A stretch of 64,000 nt of DNA from Heptranchias perlo (taxonomy: Eukaryota). The position numbers and the translations under genes were made by a program. Positions 1-49,163 of the stretch are shown here, one piece after another (the stretch's first letter is position 1; the number at the start of each line of letters is the position of its first letter). The DNA lies in contig NC_090327.1 of assembly GCF_035084215.1 (NCBI RefSeq), positions 40,300,001 through 40,364,000 on the forward strand, read 5' to 3'. The notes below the pieces were generated by a model. The model was given only the letters and a program-made list of their open reading frames with translations. It did no database searches and had not been told where the DNA came from.

Positions 1-819
1 CTTTGTGTGTAGTCTAGTGCTACTGTATAACAAACCTAATAGTTGTTGTGCAATTGATACATATAAACAGAAATCGTCCAAATAATCTGCACCAAAATTC
101 CCATCCAATTAATGAAATATTTTGAGGAGGTTTCCAATACCAGTTCAAGCTTTTCATTCGGATACCCACTGAAGTCATACGAGCATACTGAAAATATTCA
201 AAACTGAATTTGAATGCTTCTAAGTGATAAAAAAAAAATTGAAGAGCGCGTAAAGTAACACTGCACCGTGCTACATTTTCCTTTTCTGTAGGCCTTTTTG
301 GATTTGCTCTTTATTTAGCCATCATCTTTAGTACAGCTTCATTGATGGTGACGGAGGGTGGGGGCGGAAATCGCTATGCTTTCGCAATTTTATTAAAAAT
401 TAAATATTTTCTGGCCGCTAAGTGGGCTGTGTGACTGAATTTCCTGCCCTAGGTGGACCTTTCCAAGTTAAGCAGTGGACAGCAGGGAGAGCAACATGTC
501 AGTTGTCTCTCTTTTGGGAACACTTCCCCATTGCTAGTGCTGCAAATAAAAGTATGCCAAAACAAAAAATCTAGCCTTGCAGTCCATTTCAAAACAAAAT
601 GACTCTCAACCCACCTACTGTAAAATGTACTGAATGCGGCTGTGTTTTGTACTGGCTGGTGTACTGTTACGCAAGCCCACTCATCGACGAGTAACAAAAA
701 TTAAAATGTGAATTTTCAACTGCTGCACCACCTTCCTCTGGGAAGTGGAGGGAAAAGAGAGCAGTGTCCTAAATTACTCAAAACAAGCTGCCAGTCACAG
801 CACAGGCGCAAATTTGGAT

Positions 820-27997: not shown

Positions 27998-30017
27998 GGG
28001 CTCGATTTTAGCGTCGGGTTTCCTGCGGGTTTCCAGCAGGGGGGCCCCAAAAATCCCGATATCCAGTCACGTGACCGGATCGCGCCGAGATCCCGGCCAC
28101 TTCCGGGTGCCGCGCTGACGTGCGGGGCTGCGTGCGCAGGCCCCGCTGGTGGGAATCCCGCAGGCAATTAAAGCCAGCGGGGTTCCACTTGAGTGTACTT
28201 ACCTTGCTTGTTGAGGTCATTAAATGAGCTGAAGCAGCTGTCAAAACAGGAAGTGTGGGATTTTAGCTTCAAGGCAGTGAGTTTCACACACTGGGGGAAA
28301 CAGTCTCCCTTCAACCGGTCGTGTTCCAGCCAGCAGCCTGTGGCAGCTGCCAAGGTGCACTCCACAGCGGGTGGGAGAGCCCTCACCCACGCAGGAGGCC
28401 ACCGCGTCACGTAGGGCAACCCCTGCCCTCCACCACCCCCCGCCAAGCCAGAGGACAGACCGACGTGAAACCGCAGCCCCAGTGCGAGGAACCACCCAAC
28501 TACCCTGCACAACCCCTCAGACCAACACCTGCCAGATGGGTGGTGCGTTGACATCCTCGGAGGACGAACAGCATGACCAGCCCCAGCAGCCTCGCAGTCC
28601 ACCTCTGACACGTGGAGCTCCACAACAGAGTGCTGTGACACATCCACCTGTACAGCAGGAGGGAGGGCTACCGCAGAGAGAGACGCGTCGCAGAGGGCAC
28701 TCCCCTCCGCACAGGGTCCACAGACCGAGGCGCAGCTCCCCGGACCTCTCTGAGCAGCAGTGCACACGGAGGCGCAGATTCACTCGACATGTAGTCGTGG
28801 AGATCTGCAGGCTCTTTCATGCCGAGCTGCTCCTGGCTGGCCCCAGCACCATCTGCTTACCTGTCGCTGCCAGTCACCACTGCCCTCCACAACTTCTCCT
28901 CCGCATCCTTCCAGGGTGCAGCCGGGTACACCGCCGATGTCTCTCAGTCGTCTGCGCGGAAGAGCCCTGCAAATACACCTGCACCTACTCTGCAGTAACA
29001 CAATGGGTGGCATCAGTGGTGGGTCCTCATAGTGATACCCAGGAGCGGGCATTATTGGACACAACAGACAGGATTCACGGAGACATGGCAGTGGTGGTGC
29101 CAATATAATGTGTGATGTTTGTTGCTCTGAAATTCAATATAGGTAACACCCATGGCAAACCCTCAGACATCCTTGTGCATCCCCTTCATGCTCACGACAC
29201 GTTTGCCGTACGCTGCCTACTGCACATATGCGATGCAGCACAGGTGGTGGCAGGTTGAGTGAGGCTGGCCGTGAGAGAGATGCACGAGAGGGTGAGTATG
29301 GGATAGAGCCATGAGATTGTATGAGGATTGGGTTGCGTGTTAGTGGCGGGTGAGTACTGGCGAGGTGAGTAGGTGCAGGTAAGATGAGGATGGGGTTTGA
29401 GTGGGTATGAGGGGTGATGTGACAGAGTAGTGCTGGCGGTGCCGAAGGAGATGTGGGGTGGGGGCAGTGTTGTGGCAGACGGAGTGTAGGGGAAAGACTA
29501 CGTGTTCTCATTGTGGCTGACCTACTGCAGTCATTGGAGCGCCTCCTGCAATGTATGCAGGTGGGAGATATGTTGGTGGTGCAGGTGACCCCCTCTGCCA
29601 CCTCGAGCCAGGCCTTCTTGGTGGCAGAGGCAGGCCGCTTCCTCCCGCCCGCCGGGTGGAAGATCTCTGTCCTCCTCACCCCATCTGATGATACCTGGGG
29701 TGAGGCATCATTAAACTGGGAGCAGCCTTCCCCCTGGGCTGCTCCATGCTGTAATTTGTTCCATTGGTTGCAGCATCTGTCAGTGGAGGACTGCCCCTTT
29801 AAGTAGAGAACCTCCAGCTGACAGATCGTACTGCGCATGCGCAGCCCGCCCGACGCGCAGACCAGCAGCGCGGAGCCCGGAGGAGCAGGTAAGTGAATCC
29901 TATTAGTGTGTTGCCTGCTACGATCGCGCGGGCAACCCACTAATTTCACCGGGCGCGGAGGCCACGCACCCGAAACCCAACCCGCCGGAAACCCGCAGGC
30001 CTGCTAAAATCAGGCCC
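27998..30017. mobile_element. Internally deleted PIF/Harbinger DNA transposon with convergent transposase (+) and Myb/SANT (-) remnants
   Basis: TIRs GGGCTCGATTTTAGC (27998-28012) and GCTAAAATCAGGCCC (30003-30017), 13/15 match; 3-bp TSD TAT; plus-strand RVHRPR..DLSEQQCTRRRRFTRHVVVEICRL (HARBI1-like N-terminus); minus-strand FNDAS..TKKAWLEVAEGV..CRRRSND (Myb/SANT). Confidence 0.88.
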
Positions 30018-31229
30018 TATATGTTTTGATCTGACAGTGTGATGGTCTCAACCTTTCAAAGGGAATAAAGAGAAAATGGTGAGCATATTCCATGGCCTCC
30101 AGTAGCTGATATTCCAATAAAAGGATAACTGTTAATCCTTGACACGCTAGCTCAGACACAGCATATATAAGGGTGCAAGTTTTGGTCCATAAGAGACTGT
30201 CTGCTTACGAAAACCACCATTATGCAGTCAATGTAATGAAACAAGTGTTGGGAGAAAGCCCAAACTCGAATAATCTCTGCCTCCAACTGCAGTAACCTAT
30301 ATACATGCACGTGAGCTTGTTGAGAGGATTCAAAACATCAAGCAAATACTTCAGACCCCTTTGTTAAGGGAAAGTCATGTCTGACTAACTTGATTGAATT
30401 TTTTGAGGAGGCAACAAGGAGATTCGATGAGGGTAGCACATTTCATGTAGTCTACATGGATTTAAGCAAGGCTTCTGACAAGGTCCCACATAGCAAACTG
30501 GTCAGAAGAGTAAAAGCCCATGGGATCCAAGGGAAAGTGGCAAGTTGGATCCAAAATTGGCTCAGTGGCAGGAAGCAAAGGGTGATGGTCGACAGATGTT
30601 TTTGTGACTGGAAAGCTGTTTCAGTGGGGTTCCACAGGGCTCAGTACTAGGTCCCTTGCTTTTTGTGGTATATTAATGATTAAGACTTAAATGTAAGGGG
30701 CATGATTAAGGAGTTTGCAGATGATATGAAAATTGGCCATGTGGTTGATAGTGAGGAGGAAAGCTGTAGGCTGCAGGATCAATGGACTGGTCAGGTGGGC
30801 AGAAAAGTGGCAAATGGAATTCAATCTGGAGAAGTGTGAGGTAATGTATTTGGGGATGGCAAACAAGGCAAGGCAATACACAATAAATGGGAGGATACTG
30901 AGAGGTGTAGAGGAACAGAGGGACCTTAGAGTGCATGTCCACAGATCCCTGAAGGTAGCAGGACAGGTAGATAAGGTGGTTAAAAAGGCACATGGGATAC
31001 TTTTCTTTATTAGCCAAGACATAGAATATAAGAGGAGGGGGGTTATGCTAGAACTGTATAAAACACTAGTTAGGCCACAGCTTGAGTACTGTGTACAGTT
31101 CTGGTCACCACATTACAGGAAAGATGTGATTGCACTAGAGAGGGTACAGAGGAGATTTACGAGGATGTTGCCAGGGCTGGAGAATTTTAGCTATGAGGAA
31201 AGATTGGATAGGCTGAGGTTGTTTTCATT

Positions 31230-31322
31230 TGTAAACAATTTTACAACACCAAGTTATAGTCCAGCAATTTTATTTTAAAACTCACAAGCTTTCGCAGGCT
31301 TCCTCCTTCGTCAGGTGAACGA
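31230..31322 (-). mobile_element. 93-bp Penelope-type terminal-repeat insertion
   Basis: 10-bp TSD TGTTTTCATT at 31220-31229 and 31323-31332; homologous to 36386-36475. Confidence 0.8.
31282..31318 (-). ncRNA. Minimal type I hammerhead ribozyme motif with intact core
   Basis: Minus strand UCAC-CUGACGA-A-GGAGG aag CCUGC-GAA-AGCU-U-GUGA: stem I UCAC/GUGA, CUGANGA and GAAA core, palindromic AAGCUU in place of stem III. Confidence 0.7.
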
Positions 31323-32755
31323 TGTTTTCATTGGAACAGAGGTGGCTGAAGGGTCATTTAATTGACATGTATAAAATTGTGAGGGGCCTAGATAGAGTGG
31401 ATAGGAAGGACCTATTTCCATTGGCAGAGGGGTCAGTGACCAGGGGGCATAGATTTAAAGTAATTGGCAGAAGGATTAGAGGGGAGCGAGGGTGGTGGGG
31501 GTCTGGAACTCACTGCCTGAAAGAGTGGTAGAGGCAGAAACCCTCAACTCATTTAAAAAGTACTAGGATGTACACAAGGTGCCGTAACCTACAGGGCTAC
31601 GGACCAAGTGCTGCAAAGTGGGATTAAGCTAGATAGCTCTTTTGCGGCCGGCACGGACACGGTGGGCTAAATGGCCTCCTCATTGGCAGAAGGGTCTAGA
31701 ACTAGAGGACATCGATTTAAGGCGATTGGCAAAAGAACCTAAGGTGACATGAGGAAATTTTTTTTTAAAAAACAGTGAATGGTTAGGATCTGGAATGCAC
31801 TGCCAGGGGGTGGTAGAGGCAGATTCAATCATGGCCTTCAAAAGGGAATTGGATAAGTGCTTGAAAGGAAAAAAATTGCAGGGCTATGGGGAAAGGGCAG
31901 GGGAGTGGGACTAGCTGGATTGCTCTTGCTTCCATGCTATAACCTTTCTATGAGTCTATGCCGTAAACTTTCTATGATTCTATGAAGACTTGCTCATAAT
32001 GTTGCAGAAGAACATTTGCTGTACCAGAAATACAGCTTGCAAGAAAGAGAAACATAGAATCAGAAGCACATGAATTTGCTTTCAGTTAGTACTGGCTCTC
32101 CAGCAATGATGCTGTTGGGATTGTAATTTAGCCTCAGTATCTACTCAACTAAATTTGGATTTCTGCTGTCCAAATATTATCTCTTCCCCCTAAGGGTCCA
32201 CAAAAGCTCCCTAAGGATCTTTCTAGGATCTTACTTTGATCTTATGTTGAGGTTGGATCTTAATCTCTTTCAATTGCTTTTATCTGTACAGCACTGTACC
32301 CTTTGTGATTTATTATTGCTATGTGCTTTTTCCTAATTTTGAGCAAGCCAGAAACACACTAAAAAGACGTCTGTGAACTGTGTGGTTCCTAATTACAGTA
32401 AGGTTATTTAACAGCTCTGCAAACAAATACTACATCCCTTTATCATCTTAACTCTCAAATTCCATTCTTAAGTATGTAACTTTCGAACAGAGCTGGACAG
32501 ATTGGTGATCAAAAAGGTGGAAGGCTATTTCACATATCCATTATTTTATAGGGGGTGGGGAAAAAATCCCTAACCTCACCAGTCAATTTTCTATTTATGT
32601 ATTCCAGCTCTGAAGTCTAATTAAGCTAAAATGATTAATTTAAATGATATGCATGCTCTTCAAAATAAATCATTCCCCATTTCTAATATATCTATTATAT
32701 TTTAATTTGGTACATGGGCATGTGTTTCATTAAAAGCTCATTATAAGTATCTGTT

Positions 32756-32774
32756 CCTCCCGTAGGTGGCGCTG
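32756..32774 (+). promoter_or_regulatory. CTCF-like site
   Basis: CCCGTAGGTGGCGCTG fits the CTCF core CCxxYAGRKGGCRC, in unique sequence. Confidence 0.4.
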
Positions 32775-34364
32775 TGATAGGTAATAGCAGCAGTGTGACA
32801 GAAAACAGCTGCTATTTCAGTTACAGGACCTTTCAAAGCAAAACGTACCCTCCAAACCAAGACGGGGAAAAAAGTGCAGAGCACCTTTCAAAAAGATCAA
32901 ATCCCTTAACTTCAATAAGTCAGAGTCAGTTAAATAGCAAGATGAAAGGCACCCGCAAACTGGAGCTGACTATAACAGAACTTGGTAAGTAAAATTTTCG
33001 TTACACACAAAGTCAAAAATCGGGAAGTAATAATAGACCAGACAAGCATGTGCACATGAAAGAGGAAAAGAAGCAGCCATTCAATCCTCATCCACTCCTT
33101 CATATACATCTAAGTCCCAGATCCACAATTGATAGGAACAGAAGAATCAAAGATAATCTAACTTCATTGGCCAAAAAAATTATGTCTGCAACCCACTAAT
33201 CTCAAGTTCACAAAACCTCTCCACAATAACCTCCCACGATGAATGAAATAACATCAAATAGCAACCTCCCTCTCCCGACTGCAAAAGACACTTCCGCCCC
33301 CGCTTCCCCCCACCTCAAATGAAAGAGGTGTTGACTTCATCTCTTCCTCTACCCTGTCACCTTCCCTTCCCCTCCCCTCCCTTTGTCTCTTCTCCCTCCT
33401 TTTGTTCTCCCCCTCTCATACTACTTCTTTACCATGTACAACATCACAAGAGATCAACTAGTGTTAATAAAAATCTTGTTGATCTGTCCTCGTAACTTCA
33501 GTTTAAAATCCTAGAATCATCCACGTTGATCTTCTCTGAATTCTCTAATGTACGAGTATTTTGTTCTGAAGGTAGGGCATCCAAAACAGCTCAGTATATT
33601 CCAATTATAGTGAAGCTAACCACTTACAAACCCAGGCCAAAATGTACAAAACACTGATCCATGTATTTATCCCACGGCAATTTTGCTACTTCAAACAGGA
33701 CACAATGGGAGGAGGCACAATCTTTCATAAGCTTGTTGCTTCATAGATAATCAAAAAGCTCCAATTTGCTTTATAAATACATCTTCCATGAACTCATGAA
33801 TGATAATAAGGATATCCCAAACTTCTTTGTGACCAACTAAATTAGTCAGATCTCTTTTTCAACCCGAGACCTGGCTTAATTGAAAACACATGGCCAAAAT
33901 ATTTTTGATTTGTAAAATCTCTATTTGATCAGGGTCACATTCCCACAAGTTTAAGTTCAGCTACAGTCTTTGAAAAGTCCCAAAAATGGTTGATATTCTT
34001 ACTAAATGGTATCAGTCAGAGAACACAGCCAATGTTTGCTTAGTTTCAAATCCCATTCATCTTTCCCGGGTGGGCGAGAGGGAAAAAGGAAGACATCGTC
34101 TGGGCCCCACCAGTGCCACTGTTGATGGGAATAAGTTCAAAGTTGATTCCGTTCTGGCCTTCCCTCCAAGAATAAACACCTTTATTCTCCCTGGTGCCTT
34201 CCCAGAGCATTCTCACTGAAATCAGGAACTCCATGCTCAAATGGAAGTTCTGCTACCCAGACCATTTACAGTGGTGTTTTTTTGTGGATGCCCATCAAGG
34301 ACAGAGCCATGGAAAAAACAAACTTAGCATATTGACTTTTAAAGGTTAAATACTTTGTCTTTAT

Positions 34365-36346: not shown

Positions 36347-36603
36347 GTGATGTGGAGATGCCGGTGATGGACTGGGGTGGACAAATGTAAGGAATCTTAC
36401 AACACCAGGTTATAGTCCAACAGTTTTATTTGAAAATCACAAGCTTTCGGAGCTTACCTCCTTTGTCAGGTGAGTGAGTGAAAGGTTCTAAAATCGCATA
36501 GCATATATTAGGCTGGGAGGCGGTCACAGCAATCAAAGGTGTCGTTGGTGTTCAGACAAATAAAACTGTTGGACTATAACCTGGTGTTGTAAGATTCCTT
36601 ACA
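36347..36603 (-). mobile_element. Penelope-like mini-insertion with an inverted partial pseudo-LTR
   Basis: 11-bp TSD ACTGACTTACT (36336-36346 and 36604-36614); perfect 47-bp inverted repeat 36386-36432 / 36557-36603; 39-nt extension on one arm only. Confidence 0.85.
36437..36473 (-). ncRNA. Minimal hammerhead ribozyme motif with a core G8-to-A change
   Basis: Minus strand UCAC-CUGACAA-A-GGAG guaag CUCC-GAA-AGCU-U-GUGA. Confidence 0.6.
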
Positions 36604-36725
36604 ACTGACTTACTTTGGCTGCAATATGTACAACCTACAGAATGCATTGCAGCAACTTGCTGAGCTAATTTCGACAGCACCTCTCTAATGCTACCACTAT
36701 CACCAAGGACAAGAGCAGCAATGCC

Positions 36726-48000: not shown

Positions 48001-49163
48001 AACTTTGGTTAGACCACACTTGGAGTACTGTGCACAGTTCCGGTCTTCATATTATAAAAAGAATACAGAGGCATTGGAGAAGGTGCAAAAAAGATTCACA
48101 AGGATGATACCAGAACTGAGGGGATATCCTTATCAGGAAAGGCTGAACAGGCTTGGAGTTCTTTTCTCTAGAAAAGGCTGAGGGCTGACCTGATAAAGGT
48201 CTTTAAAATAATGAAAGAGTTTGACTGGGTAGAACTGGAGAAAATGTTTCCACTTGTGGGAGAGTCCAAAACTAGAGGTCATCAATGTAAGATAGTCACT
48301 AATGAATCCAATTGGGAATTCTGGAGAAACCTCTTTACCCAAAGAGTGGTAAGAATGTGGAACATGTTACCACAGGAAGTAGTTGAGACAAAAATCATAG
48401 ATGCATTTAAGGGGAAGCTAGATAAGCACACGAAGGAGAAAGGAATAGAAGCATATGCTGATAGGGTTAGATGTAGTAGGGAGGGAGGAGGCTCATGAGA
48501 GCAGGGAGGTTATGCTAGAACCGCATAAAACACTAGTTAGACCATAGCATCAGTACTGCGTACAGTTCTGGTCACCACATTACAGGAAAGATGTGATTGC
48601 ACTCGACAGGGTACAGAGGAGATTTACGAGGATGTTGCCAGGGCTGGAGAATTTTAGCTATGAGGAAAGATTGGATAGGCTGGGGTTGTTTTCATTGGAA
48701 CAGAGGAGACTGAAGGGTGATTTAATTGAGGTGTATAAAATTATGAAGGGCCTAGATGTGGATAAGAAGGACCTATTTCCCTTAGCAGAGGGGTCAATAA
48801 CCAGGGGTCATAGATTTAAAATAATTGGTAAAAGGATTAGAGGGGAGTGGAGGGGAAGTTTTTTCACCCAGAGGGTGGTGGGGGTCTGGAACTCACTGCC
48901 TGAAAGGGTGGTAGAGACAGAAACCCTCATCGCATTTAAAAAGTACTTGGACGTGCACTTGAAGTGCCATAACCTACAGTGCTATAGACCAAGTGCTGGA
49001 AAGTGGGATTAGGCTGGATAGCTCTTTTTTGGCCAGCACAGACACGATGGGCTGAATGGCCTCCTTCTGTGCTGTAAATTTCTATGATTCTATGAGGAGC
49101 ATAAATGCTGGCATAGACCATTTGTGCCGAATGGCCTGCTCCTGTGCTGTAGACTTGATGTAA
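45070..49163 (+). mobile_element. Long decayed CR1 (ORF1 esterase C-terminus, ORF2, 3' UTR) with nested CR1 pieces at about 45594-45858 (-) and 48500-49094 (+)
   Basis: QIRKMNAWLKEW..WHQYWDRKELYHYDGVHLNRNG (SGNH-type ORF1), then MTDTW, FYRSP, GPDGLHP, GVPQGSVLGP; 3' UTR resumes at 49095. Confidence 0.88.

What the first reader, a model, noticed from the sequence alone, without database searches (positions are those of the whole stretch)
31220..31332. 93-bp mobile unit that is little more than a hammerhead ribozyme and poly(A) signal
Seen: a CR1 reading frame is interrupted by 93 bp with a perfect 10-bp TSD. On the minus strand the insert reads stem I, CUGACGA, stem II (4 of 5 pairs), GAAA, palindromic AAGCUU, stem I', then AAUAAA about 10 nt downstream. 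Established: Penelope-like elements carry minimal type I hammerheads with a palindrome replacing stem III. Inference: either an extreme 5'-truncated Penelope or a defined non-autonomous ribozyme mini-element (retrozyme-like) mobilised in trans.
Basis: partly seen in the sequence, partly recalled or inferred. Interest (0 to 1): 0.7.

Follow-up and report, generated by a model that had tools for sequence, protein, structure and literature searches.

The report
Penelope leader stub with a hammerhead
This 93-base insert is a real, slightly damaged stub of a very abundant Penelope-type jumping gene rather than a mini-element of its own; about half of such stubs begin some 30 bases after the gene's TATA box, so they are likely copies that ran off the start of its RNA, which would make the genome a record of how these elements copy themselves.

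Summary
The insert (31230-31322, minus strand), its 10-bp duplication and the minimal hammerhead motif are real; an empty site exists in the window. The 93 bases are the leader/terminal repeat of an autonomous Penelope-like element: a 3081-bp tandem unit with an intact 901-aa RT + GIY-YIG frame lies elsewhere, and the genome has 62,115 exact matches to the 3' 32-mer. 3' ends fall at two sites about 37 nt apart, as for the internal RT starts of the anole element PAc. 5' ends are not random: 168 of 336 sampled copies end within 20 nt upstream of the ribozyme core, peaking 30-31 nt after a TATA box in two subfamilies whose TATA-to-ribozyme spacing differs; 2 end at the predicted cut. Short copies have no sequence of their own (111 of 168 identical to a long copy), no TATA box, no poly(A) tail and no tandem arrays. 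Likely mechanism: RT starts inside the uncut mRNA leader and runs off its start. The start site is inferred, not mapped. This copy stops 6-9 nt short of the peak and has a private stem II mismatch (50 vs 72,752 intact cores). The scan noted this pattern before, in this and other genomes.

The parts
31230..31322 (-). Short Penelope-like insertion: the element's leader/pLTR end, from TATA+36..39 to the first (short) 3' end site
   Evidence: 97.8% identical to the end of long RT+GIY-YIG copies L002/L031; edit distance 2 to the nearest long copy
31220..31229 (+). Target-site duplication, left copy (its last base is shared with the element's next base)
   Evidence: empty site at window 48597 onward
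31323..31332 (+). Target-site duplication, right copy (31323-31325 also match the element's upstream ACA: 3-nt microhomology)
31280..31320 (-). Minimal type I hammerhead motif: stem I 31315-31320 with 31280-31285, core CUGACGA 31308-31314, bulged A 31307, stem II 31294-31306, GAAA 31290-31293, palindrome AAGCUU 31286-31291, predicted cut between 31286 and 31285
   Evidence: 96% of cells paired and 4 of 11 pairs with two-sided changes across 21 variants
31295..31295 (-). Private C-to-G change that breaks the second pair of stem II
   Evidence: 50 genomic cores carry it, across several subfamilies, against 72,752 with the intact pair; 0 of 261 in the sample
31269..31274 (-). AAUAAA hexamer, conserved in the family, not at the end of the insert
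   Evidence: 298 of 304 copies carry it; 0 of 336 have an A-tail
30730..31229 (+). Host LINE fragment (CR1-like by recalled motifs), frame open up to the insert
31333..31490 (+). Host LINE fragment, same frame resuming after the duplication

Best explanation
The insert is a short copy of the leader of an autonomous Penelope-like retroelement, likely made when the element's reverse transcriptase started inside the uncut mRNA leader and ran off the RNA's 5' end. Shown: the sequence is the pLTR/leader of a 3081-bp element with an intact RT + GIY-YIG frame; copies have two fixed 3' end sites, about 38 nt before the ATG and at the ATG; half of the sampled copies have 5' ends in a 21-nt zone with a sharp upstream edge at TATA+30/31; almost none end at the ribozyme cut. 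Inferred: (1) TATA+30/31 is the transcription start, so the hammerhead is within the first 35-45 nt of the mRNA; (2) the element's endonuclease nicked the AT-rich target and the 3' end primed synthesis at the first internal start site, as shown in vitro for the anole element PAc; (3) synthesis passed the uncleaved hammerhead and stopped at or near the RNA's 5' end; (4) the cDNA end was joined through the 3-nt ACA microhomology, losing 6-9 nt; (5) the copy lacks the TATA box and the downstream ORF sequence, so it is likely dead on arrival, and it later gained two private changes. Each stub would be made anew from the autonomous element's RNA, not copied from other stubs.
For: Continuity with long RT+EN copies and an intact tandem array. 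62,115 exact 3'-end matches. Bimodal 3' ends, 0-5 and 36-44 nt past the anchor, also in the 93 copies picked only by the shared 32-mer; same pattern as PAc (PMC11167929). 5' ends: 168 of 336 in C3 0..-20, hazard 3.93 per 100 nt against 0.46, 0.16, 0.38, 0.54 and 0.17 in the neighbouring zones; 43 of 93 in the subset picked only by the 32-mer. The peak follows the TATA box, not the ribozyme: subfamily A (spacing mostly 44-47 nt) 18 of 57 survivors end at TATA+30, the A of TCATTT; subfamily B (38-40 nt) 23 of 87 end at +31; medians relative to the core -15 vs -10 (p 3e-7), relative to TATA 32 vs 31 (p 0.014). In A the same ATTTC word recurs at +11, +16 and +25 with 0, 1 and 2 ends, so the word alone does not make the peak. 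In 85 head-to-head pairs the longer arm peaks at +30/31 (31 of 85) and 78 of 85 pair a short with a tailed arm. 111 of 168 short copies are identical to a long copy, 148 within one edit. PAc hammerhead mutants insert normally in vitro and uncut RNA is the main template.
Against: No transcription start was mapped: the only runs found were contigs guessed to be RNA, which cannot show starts. TATA and initiator are motif matches only, and for short copies the TATA position is imputed from the best-matching long copy. D. virilis Penelope has a TATA-less internal promoter (PMC2377424 passages). Subfamily B has a weak hairpin (-4.5 to -6.5 kcal/mol) ending near +32, which could stall RT at the same place. 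The test for a cap-derived extra G was confounded by head-to-head junctions. The peak has a downstream tail (+32 to +45), in which this copy lies, so for this single copy a chance truncation cannot be excluded. 87 of 336 copies run far beyond the start, which needs read-through of tandem units, a circle or a template jump. The sample is mostly from contig C1.
Confidence: 0.75

Rival explanations
1. Same origin, but the 5' peak is a stall or junction artefact: RT pauses or dissociates just past the hammerhead (RNA structure, bound protein), and AT-rich microhomology fixes the ends.
For: Subfamily B has a hairpin whose base is near +32. Junctions in head-to-head pairs mostly overlap by 1-3 nt (42 of 85) and sub-peaks sit on AT-rich words.
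Against: Subfamily A has no comparable hairpin (-1.8 to -4.3 kcal/mol) yet the same TATA-relative edge; the peak moves 5-8 nt relative to the ribozyme between subfamilies; identical ATTTC words further upstream are barely used.
Confidence: 0.15
2. A discrete non-autonomous ribozyme mini-element (retrozyme-like) that is transcribed, self-cleaves as a dimer and is mobilised in trans as its own lineage.
For: Tens of thousands of short copies with clustered ends and different TSDs; hammerhead pairs covary; animal retrozymes are reported to derive from pLTRs (bioRxiv 10.64898/2026.07.22.740005).
Against: No short-only sequence variant: 111 of 168 identical to long copies, and subfamilies A and B each hold short and long members (86/24 and 62/50). 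Lengths vary (52-157 nt). No head-to-tail arrays of the short unit: 11 same-strand neighbours under 1 kb among 336 anchors, at 11 different spacings. Ends are not at the cut site (2 of 336). The TATA box lies outside the stub.
Confidence: 0.05
3. Ordinary random 5' truncation of a Penelope-like element, this copy being simply a very short one.
For: 59 of 336 ends fall within or 3' of the ribozyme and 109 lie upstream of the zone; this copy ends 6-9 nt from the peak at a microhomology; 5' truncation is the textbook description (PMC8557442 passages).
Against: The hazard is 7-25 times higher in the 21-nt zone than on either side, which random truncation does not give.
Confidence: 0.05

Closest known systems
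Endonuclease-bearing Penelope-like elements of the Neptune/Nematis type (Craig et al. 2021, PMC8557442; passages read)
   Same: [quoted passage not shown]
   Different: The passages describe frequent 5' truncation but no preferred 5' end; here half of the copies end in a 21-nt zone tied to a TATA box. Clade not tested by an RT tree.
PAc (Poseidon) of Anolis carolinensis (Frangieh et al. 2024, PMC11167929; main text read, supplements not seen)
   Same: Two internal RT start sites bounding the tail, AT-rich targets, both strands used, hammerhead not needed for insertion.
   Different: In PAc the ORF starts inside the hammerhead and RT starts 111-118 nt into the ORF; here the ATG is 121 nt after the core and RT starts at and 38 nt before it. 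The main text maps no 5' ends of genomic copies (its Fig. S2, not seen, may bear on this).
[quoted passage not shown]
   Same: Type I core, bulged base before stem II, G10.1-C11.1, palindrome in place of helix III, mostly single motifs ascribed to truncated PLEs.
   Different: Stem II is 5 bp here (7-8 bp in their Schistosoma families); this copy has a private mismatch; cleavage untested.
Non-LTR retrozymes (Li et al. 2026 bioRxiv 10.64898/2026.07.22.740005; parts 1-3 of 5 read)
   Same: Non-coding, hammerhead-bearing, pLTR-related, dispersed monomers exist.
   Different: Retrozymes are defined by tandem units each with a hammerhead; the short unit here was not found in arrays and has no lineage of its own.
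Minus-strand strong-stop DNA of LTR retroelements (recalled, from no call)
   Same: RT starts near the RNA's 5' end and runs off it, giving a short cDNA of defined size.
   Different: Here priming is by nicked target DNA, not tRNA, so the short product is fixed in the genome; a strand transfer is not shown.

Membership tests
EN+ Penelope-like element (parent) | Single ORF with RT and C-terminal GIY-YIG endonuclease, continuous with the insert | tested here: met
   901-aa ORF in L085, RVT_1 E 3e-10; GIY-YIG E 3e-4 on the last 132 aa, 21.6 bits, just under Pfam's cutoff of 22.6; insert continuous with it
EN+ Penelope-like element (parent) | Tandem or partial-tandem units forming pLTRs, optional 30-40-bp tail, inverted truncated arms | tested here: met
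   3081-bp tandem units; bimodal 3' ends; 85 head-to-head pairs
Neptune/Nematis clades | CX2-5CxxC motif in the RT-EN linker plus CCHH cysteines in the GIY-YIG core | tested here: met
   CHGNLCKTC and two cysteines between VVY and YIG in the translation; feature from PMC8557442
Neptune/Nematis clades | Placement in an RT tree | not tested
   No reference PLE proteins were fetched
Minimal type I hammerhead | Core boxes CUGANGA and GAAA, bulged base 9.1, G10.1-C11.1, palindrome in place of helix III | tested here: met
   Invariant in 21 of 21 aligned variants
Minimal type I hammerhead | Stems I and II kept by compensatory change | tested here: met
   96.1% of 231 cells paired, 4 of 11 pairs with two-sided change, slid controls 22-49%; sequences are related, so counts are not independent events; this copy breaks one pair
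Minimal type I hammerhead | Self-cleavage (as dimer or protein-assisted) | not testable with these tools
   Only indirect: 2 of 336 copies end within 2 nt of the predicted cut
Non-LTR retrozyme | Head-to-tail tandem repeats of a short unit, each with a hammerhead | tested here: not met
   11 same-strand neighbours under 1 kb among 336 anchors, all at different spacings; the only regular arrays seen are full 3081-bp units. A sample, not a genome-wide tandem search
Non-LTR retrozyme | Circular RNA monomers | not testable with these tools
   Only contigs of guessed RNA runs were offered
Discrete non-autonomous mini-element | Own lineage: diagnostic sequence absent from autonomous copies | tested here: not met
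   111 of 168 short copies identical to one of 66 distinct long-copy ends, 148 within one edit
Discrete non-autonomous mini-element | One fixed pair of ends (about 93 bp) | tested here: not met
   Two 3' sites; 5' ends peaked but spread over about 20 nt; 7 of 336 match this copy's ends within 3 nt

The most novel reading that the evidence does not exclude
The stubs are target-primed strong-stop DNAs: the pLTR is laid out like U3 (TATA) - R (start, hammerhead, AAUAAA) - U5 (RT start sites), a single promoter-bearing unit can only start RT at its 5' site, and long copies arise when the cDNA jumps from the RNA's capped start to the repeat at its 3' end (or continues round a hammerhead-made circle). 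That would supply the missing mechanism for pLTR regeneration and link Penelope-like elements mechanistically to LTR elements.
Probability: 0.2. Interest if true: 0.8.

Novelty: new member of a known kind. Interest (0 to 1): 0.5.

Why it matters
The insert itself is one of tens of thousands and has no sign of a function. [quoted passage not shown] If the 5' edge is the transcription start, the genome holds a very large natural read-out of the RT products: most events copy only 100-145 nt of uncut leader, the ribozyme cut is not what defines the template, and long copies need a separate route. It also warns that such stubs will be mis-annotated as SINEs or solo retrozymes. I found no statement of the TATA-linked 5' end in the papers returned (six read in part); subscription papers and supplements were not seen.

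Tried and rejected
Rfam scan of 29000-34000 at E<=10: five weak unrelated hits, no hammerhead. Single-strand folding of three cuts of the insert: no better than shuffles; the drawn hammerhead fold scores -5.5 kcal/mol. The 40 BLAST-scored relatives were not used for end statistics because they are selected for covering the whole query and for this copy's private change. Template made by ribozyme cleavage: rejected, 2 of 336 ends at the cut. AAUAAA as the insert's 3'-end signal: rejected. Cap-derived G: among the first 100 listed of 1,238 matches ending at +30, my hand tally was G 53, A 35, T 12, but 28 of 33 inspected were head-to-head junctions where the partner arm supplies the base, and the control position was also G-rich; 5 of 6 simple A copies had a G in front, some within the TSD, and subfamily B showed no such sign: inconclusive. 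A first end-calling run used only 11 references through a landmark error and was redone with 79. Sequencing runs: no RNA holder on record; four contig sets guessed to be RNA cover the leader-ORF junction but cannot show starts. Look-up of earlier findings by sequence gave nothing. A paper search on sharks returned fish-biology papers only.

Full report
Observation. The window has TGTTTTCATT at 31220-31229 and 31323-31332 with 93 bases between. A 97%-identical host repeat at 48597 onward carries the 10-mer once, followed directly by the sequence that follows the second copy here, so this is an insertion with a target-site duplication. The host frame is open to the left and resumes in register on the right; calling it CR1 rests on recalled motifs, Pfam gave nothing useful. 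The descriptor is found once in the window, 0.06 expected. Rfam has no matching hit and the monomer does not fold better than shuffles, as would be expected of a minimal hammerhead without helix III (PMC4209133).

What it belongs to. The best genomic matches continue upstream into a 3' UTR and an RT + GIY-YIG frame. A tandem array at G000:C1:4459400-4468700 (L085) has 3081-bp units with an intact 901-aa ORF. The linker CX4CxxC and two cysteines within the GIY-YIG core fit the Neptune/Nematis type as described in PMC8557442; no tree was made. In the tandem the hammerhead core lies 121 nt before the ATG and 40 nt after a TATAAAT box. The insert is therefore the element's terminal repeat, which is also the leader of its mRNA. 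The 32 nt at its 3' end occur 62,115 times exactly, and intact cores of this and sister subfamilies 72,752 times, in a 3.25-Gb genome.

Sample. To avoid BLAST's bias I collected copies by 3' patterns only: all 100 listed places of the 62,115 (first 5 Mb of C1), 90 of 1,016 short-ended copies and 70 of 1,684 tailed copies, plus any other anchor in those loci. Of 340 anchors, 3 were dropped for short flanks and 1 as a duplicate, leaving 336. 5' ends were called by local alignment to the best of 79 natural long copies.

3' ends. They fall at 0-5 and 36-44 nt past the anchor, also in the 93 copies not selected on their 3' flank. The second site is at the ATG. This is the known optional tail, which for the anole element PAc marks two internal RT start sites (PMC11167929). 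None of 336 copies has an A-tail, though 298 of 304 keep the AAUAAA. The window copy has the short end.

5' ends. 168 of 336 fall in the 21 nt upstream of the core; 30 lie 3' of the cut, 2 at it, 27 in the ribozyme body, 14 at -21..-46, 8 at -47..-99 and 87 beyond. Per 100 nt of survivors the rates are 3.93 in the zone and 0.16-0.54 elsewhere. Subfamilies differ in TATA-to-core spacing (38-47 nt), which separates two readings. In subfamily A 18 of 57 survivors end at TATA+30, the A of TCATTT, and only 10 ends fall in +28..+1; in B 23 of 87 end at +31 and 11 in +29..+1. Relative to the core the medians differ by 5 nt (p 3e-7), relative to TATA by 1 nt (p 0.014). The TATA position of a short copy is imputed from its best long match, and its subfamily from the bases next to the core. 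In 85 head-to-head pairs the longer arm peaks at +30/31 (31 of 85), the shorter is spread downstream, overlaps are mostly 1-3 nt, and 78 pairs join a short-ended with a tailed arm. A sister family seen by chance (19 anchors) has TATA-like boxes at similar spacing in its long copies, and 5 of its 8 short arms begin within about 12 nt upstream of the core, by eye; this is a weak replicate.

Not a lineage of its own. 111 of 168 short copies are identical to the end of a long copy and 148 are within one edit; A and B each contain short and long members. Simple TSD-flanked inserts measure 52-157 nt, mostly 95-105 (short end) or 131-144 (tailed) (29 measured). Only 7 of 336 share this copy's ends within 3 nt, and no array of the short unit was seen. 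The stubs start downstream of the TATA box and stop before the ORF sequence that PAc needs for initiation, so they likely cannot be copied again.

The ribozyme. Across 21 variants the core is invariant, 96% of stem cells pair and 4 of 11 pairs show two-sided changes, so the family keeps the fold. This copy's G.G in stem II is private: 50 cores genome-wide have it, in several subfamilies, against 72,752. Since the insert spans the cut site and almost no copies end there, the template was uncut or re-joined RNA, in line with PAc, whose hammerhead mutants insert normally. Cleavage was not tested.

Mechanism. The most likely reading is run-off: transcription starts at TATA+30/31, the element's protein nicks an AT-rich target, RT starts at one of two sites in the leader and copies about 100 or 140 nt to the RNA's 5' end; the end is then joined, often by microhomology and with loss of a few bases. 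This copy ends at TATA+36..39 at an ACA shared with the target. The geometry is shown, the start site and each enzymatic step are inferred. Against it: no mapped start, a weak hairpin near +32 in B, a TATA-less promoter in D. virilis Penelope, and an inconclusive cap-G test. A quarter of copies are long and need read-through of tandem units, a circle (proposed in PMC4209133) or a template jump; my data do not choose among these.

Literature and earlier notes. Read: PMC4209133 parts 1-2 of 4, PMC11167929 parts 1-2 of 4 and passages, bioRxiv 10.64898/2026.07.22.740005 parts 1-3 of 5, passages of PMC8557442, PMC2377424 and PMC3846280 (which notes a putative TATA and initiator in a rotifer pLTR). 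No supplements were read; Fig. S2 of PMC11167929 may show 5' ends. Searches returned no paper whose read parts state a TATA-linked 5' end. I wrote down the run-off reading and measured it before seeing the scan's notes; these report the same pattern for other stubs in this and other genomes. They are unreviewed AI notes and are not counted as support.

Verdict. Real insertion, real motif, ordinary origin: a stub of a known kind of retroelement, not a new mini-element. The non-random 5' edge is the part worth testing. Interest 0.5.

Noticed in passing
window 36348-36607: A second Penelope insertion, of a sister family: a head-to-head pair with a tailed arm that includes the TATA-like box and a short arm that ends 3' of the ribozyme; its core has a G8-to-A change.
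   Followed up: partly
window 48597-48696: Uninterrupted close relative (97%) of the host LINE, serving as the empty site.
   Followed up: yes
L085 (G000:C1:4459400-4468700, minus strand) and L083: Head-to-tail array of 3081-bp Penelope-like units with two identical intact 901-aa ORFs, a candidate source locus for subfamily B.
   Followed up: partly
long copies in L033-L257: Length differences among subfamilies are concentrated between TATA+30 and the core (6-17 nt, one copy with a 17-nt insertion there), which could reflect a loosely constrained loop or imprecise jumps at the RNA start.
   Followed up: no
L031, L032, L011, L020, L027: Long head-to-head insertions with arms of 0.2-2 kb, again pairing two arms at a shared 5' junction.
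   Followed up: no
L067 and L063: Head-to-head pairs whose junction falls on a palindrome of the ribozyme itself (the AAGCTT word in L067, the start of the core in L063).
   Followed up: no
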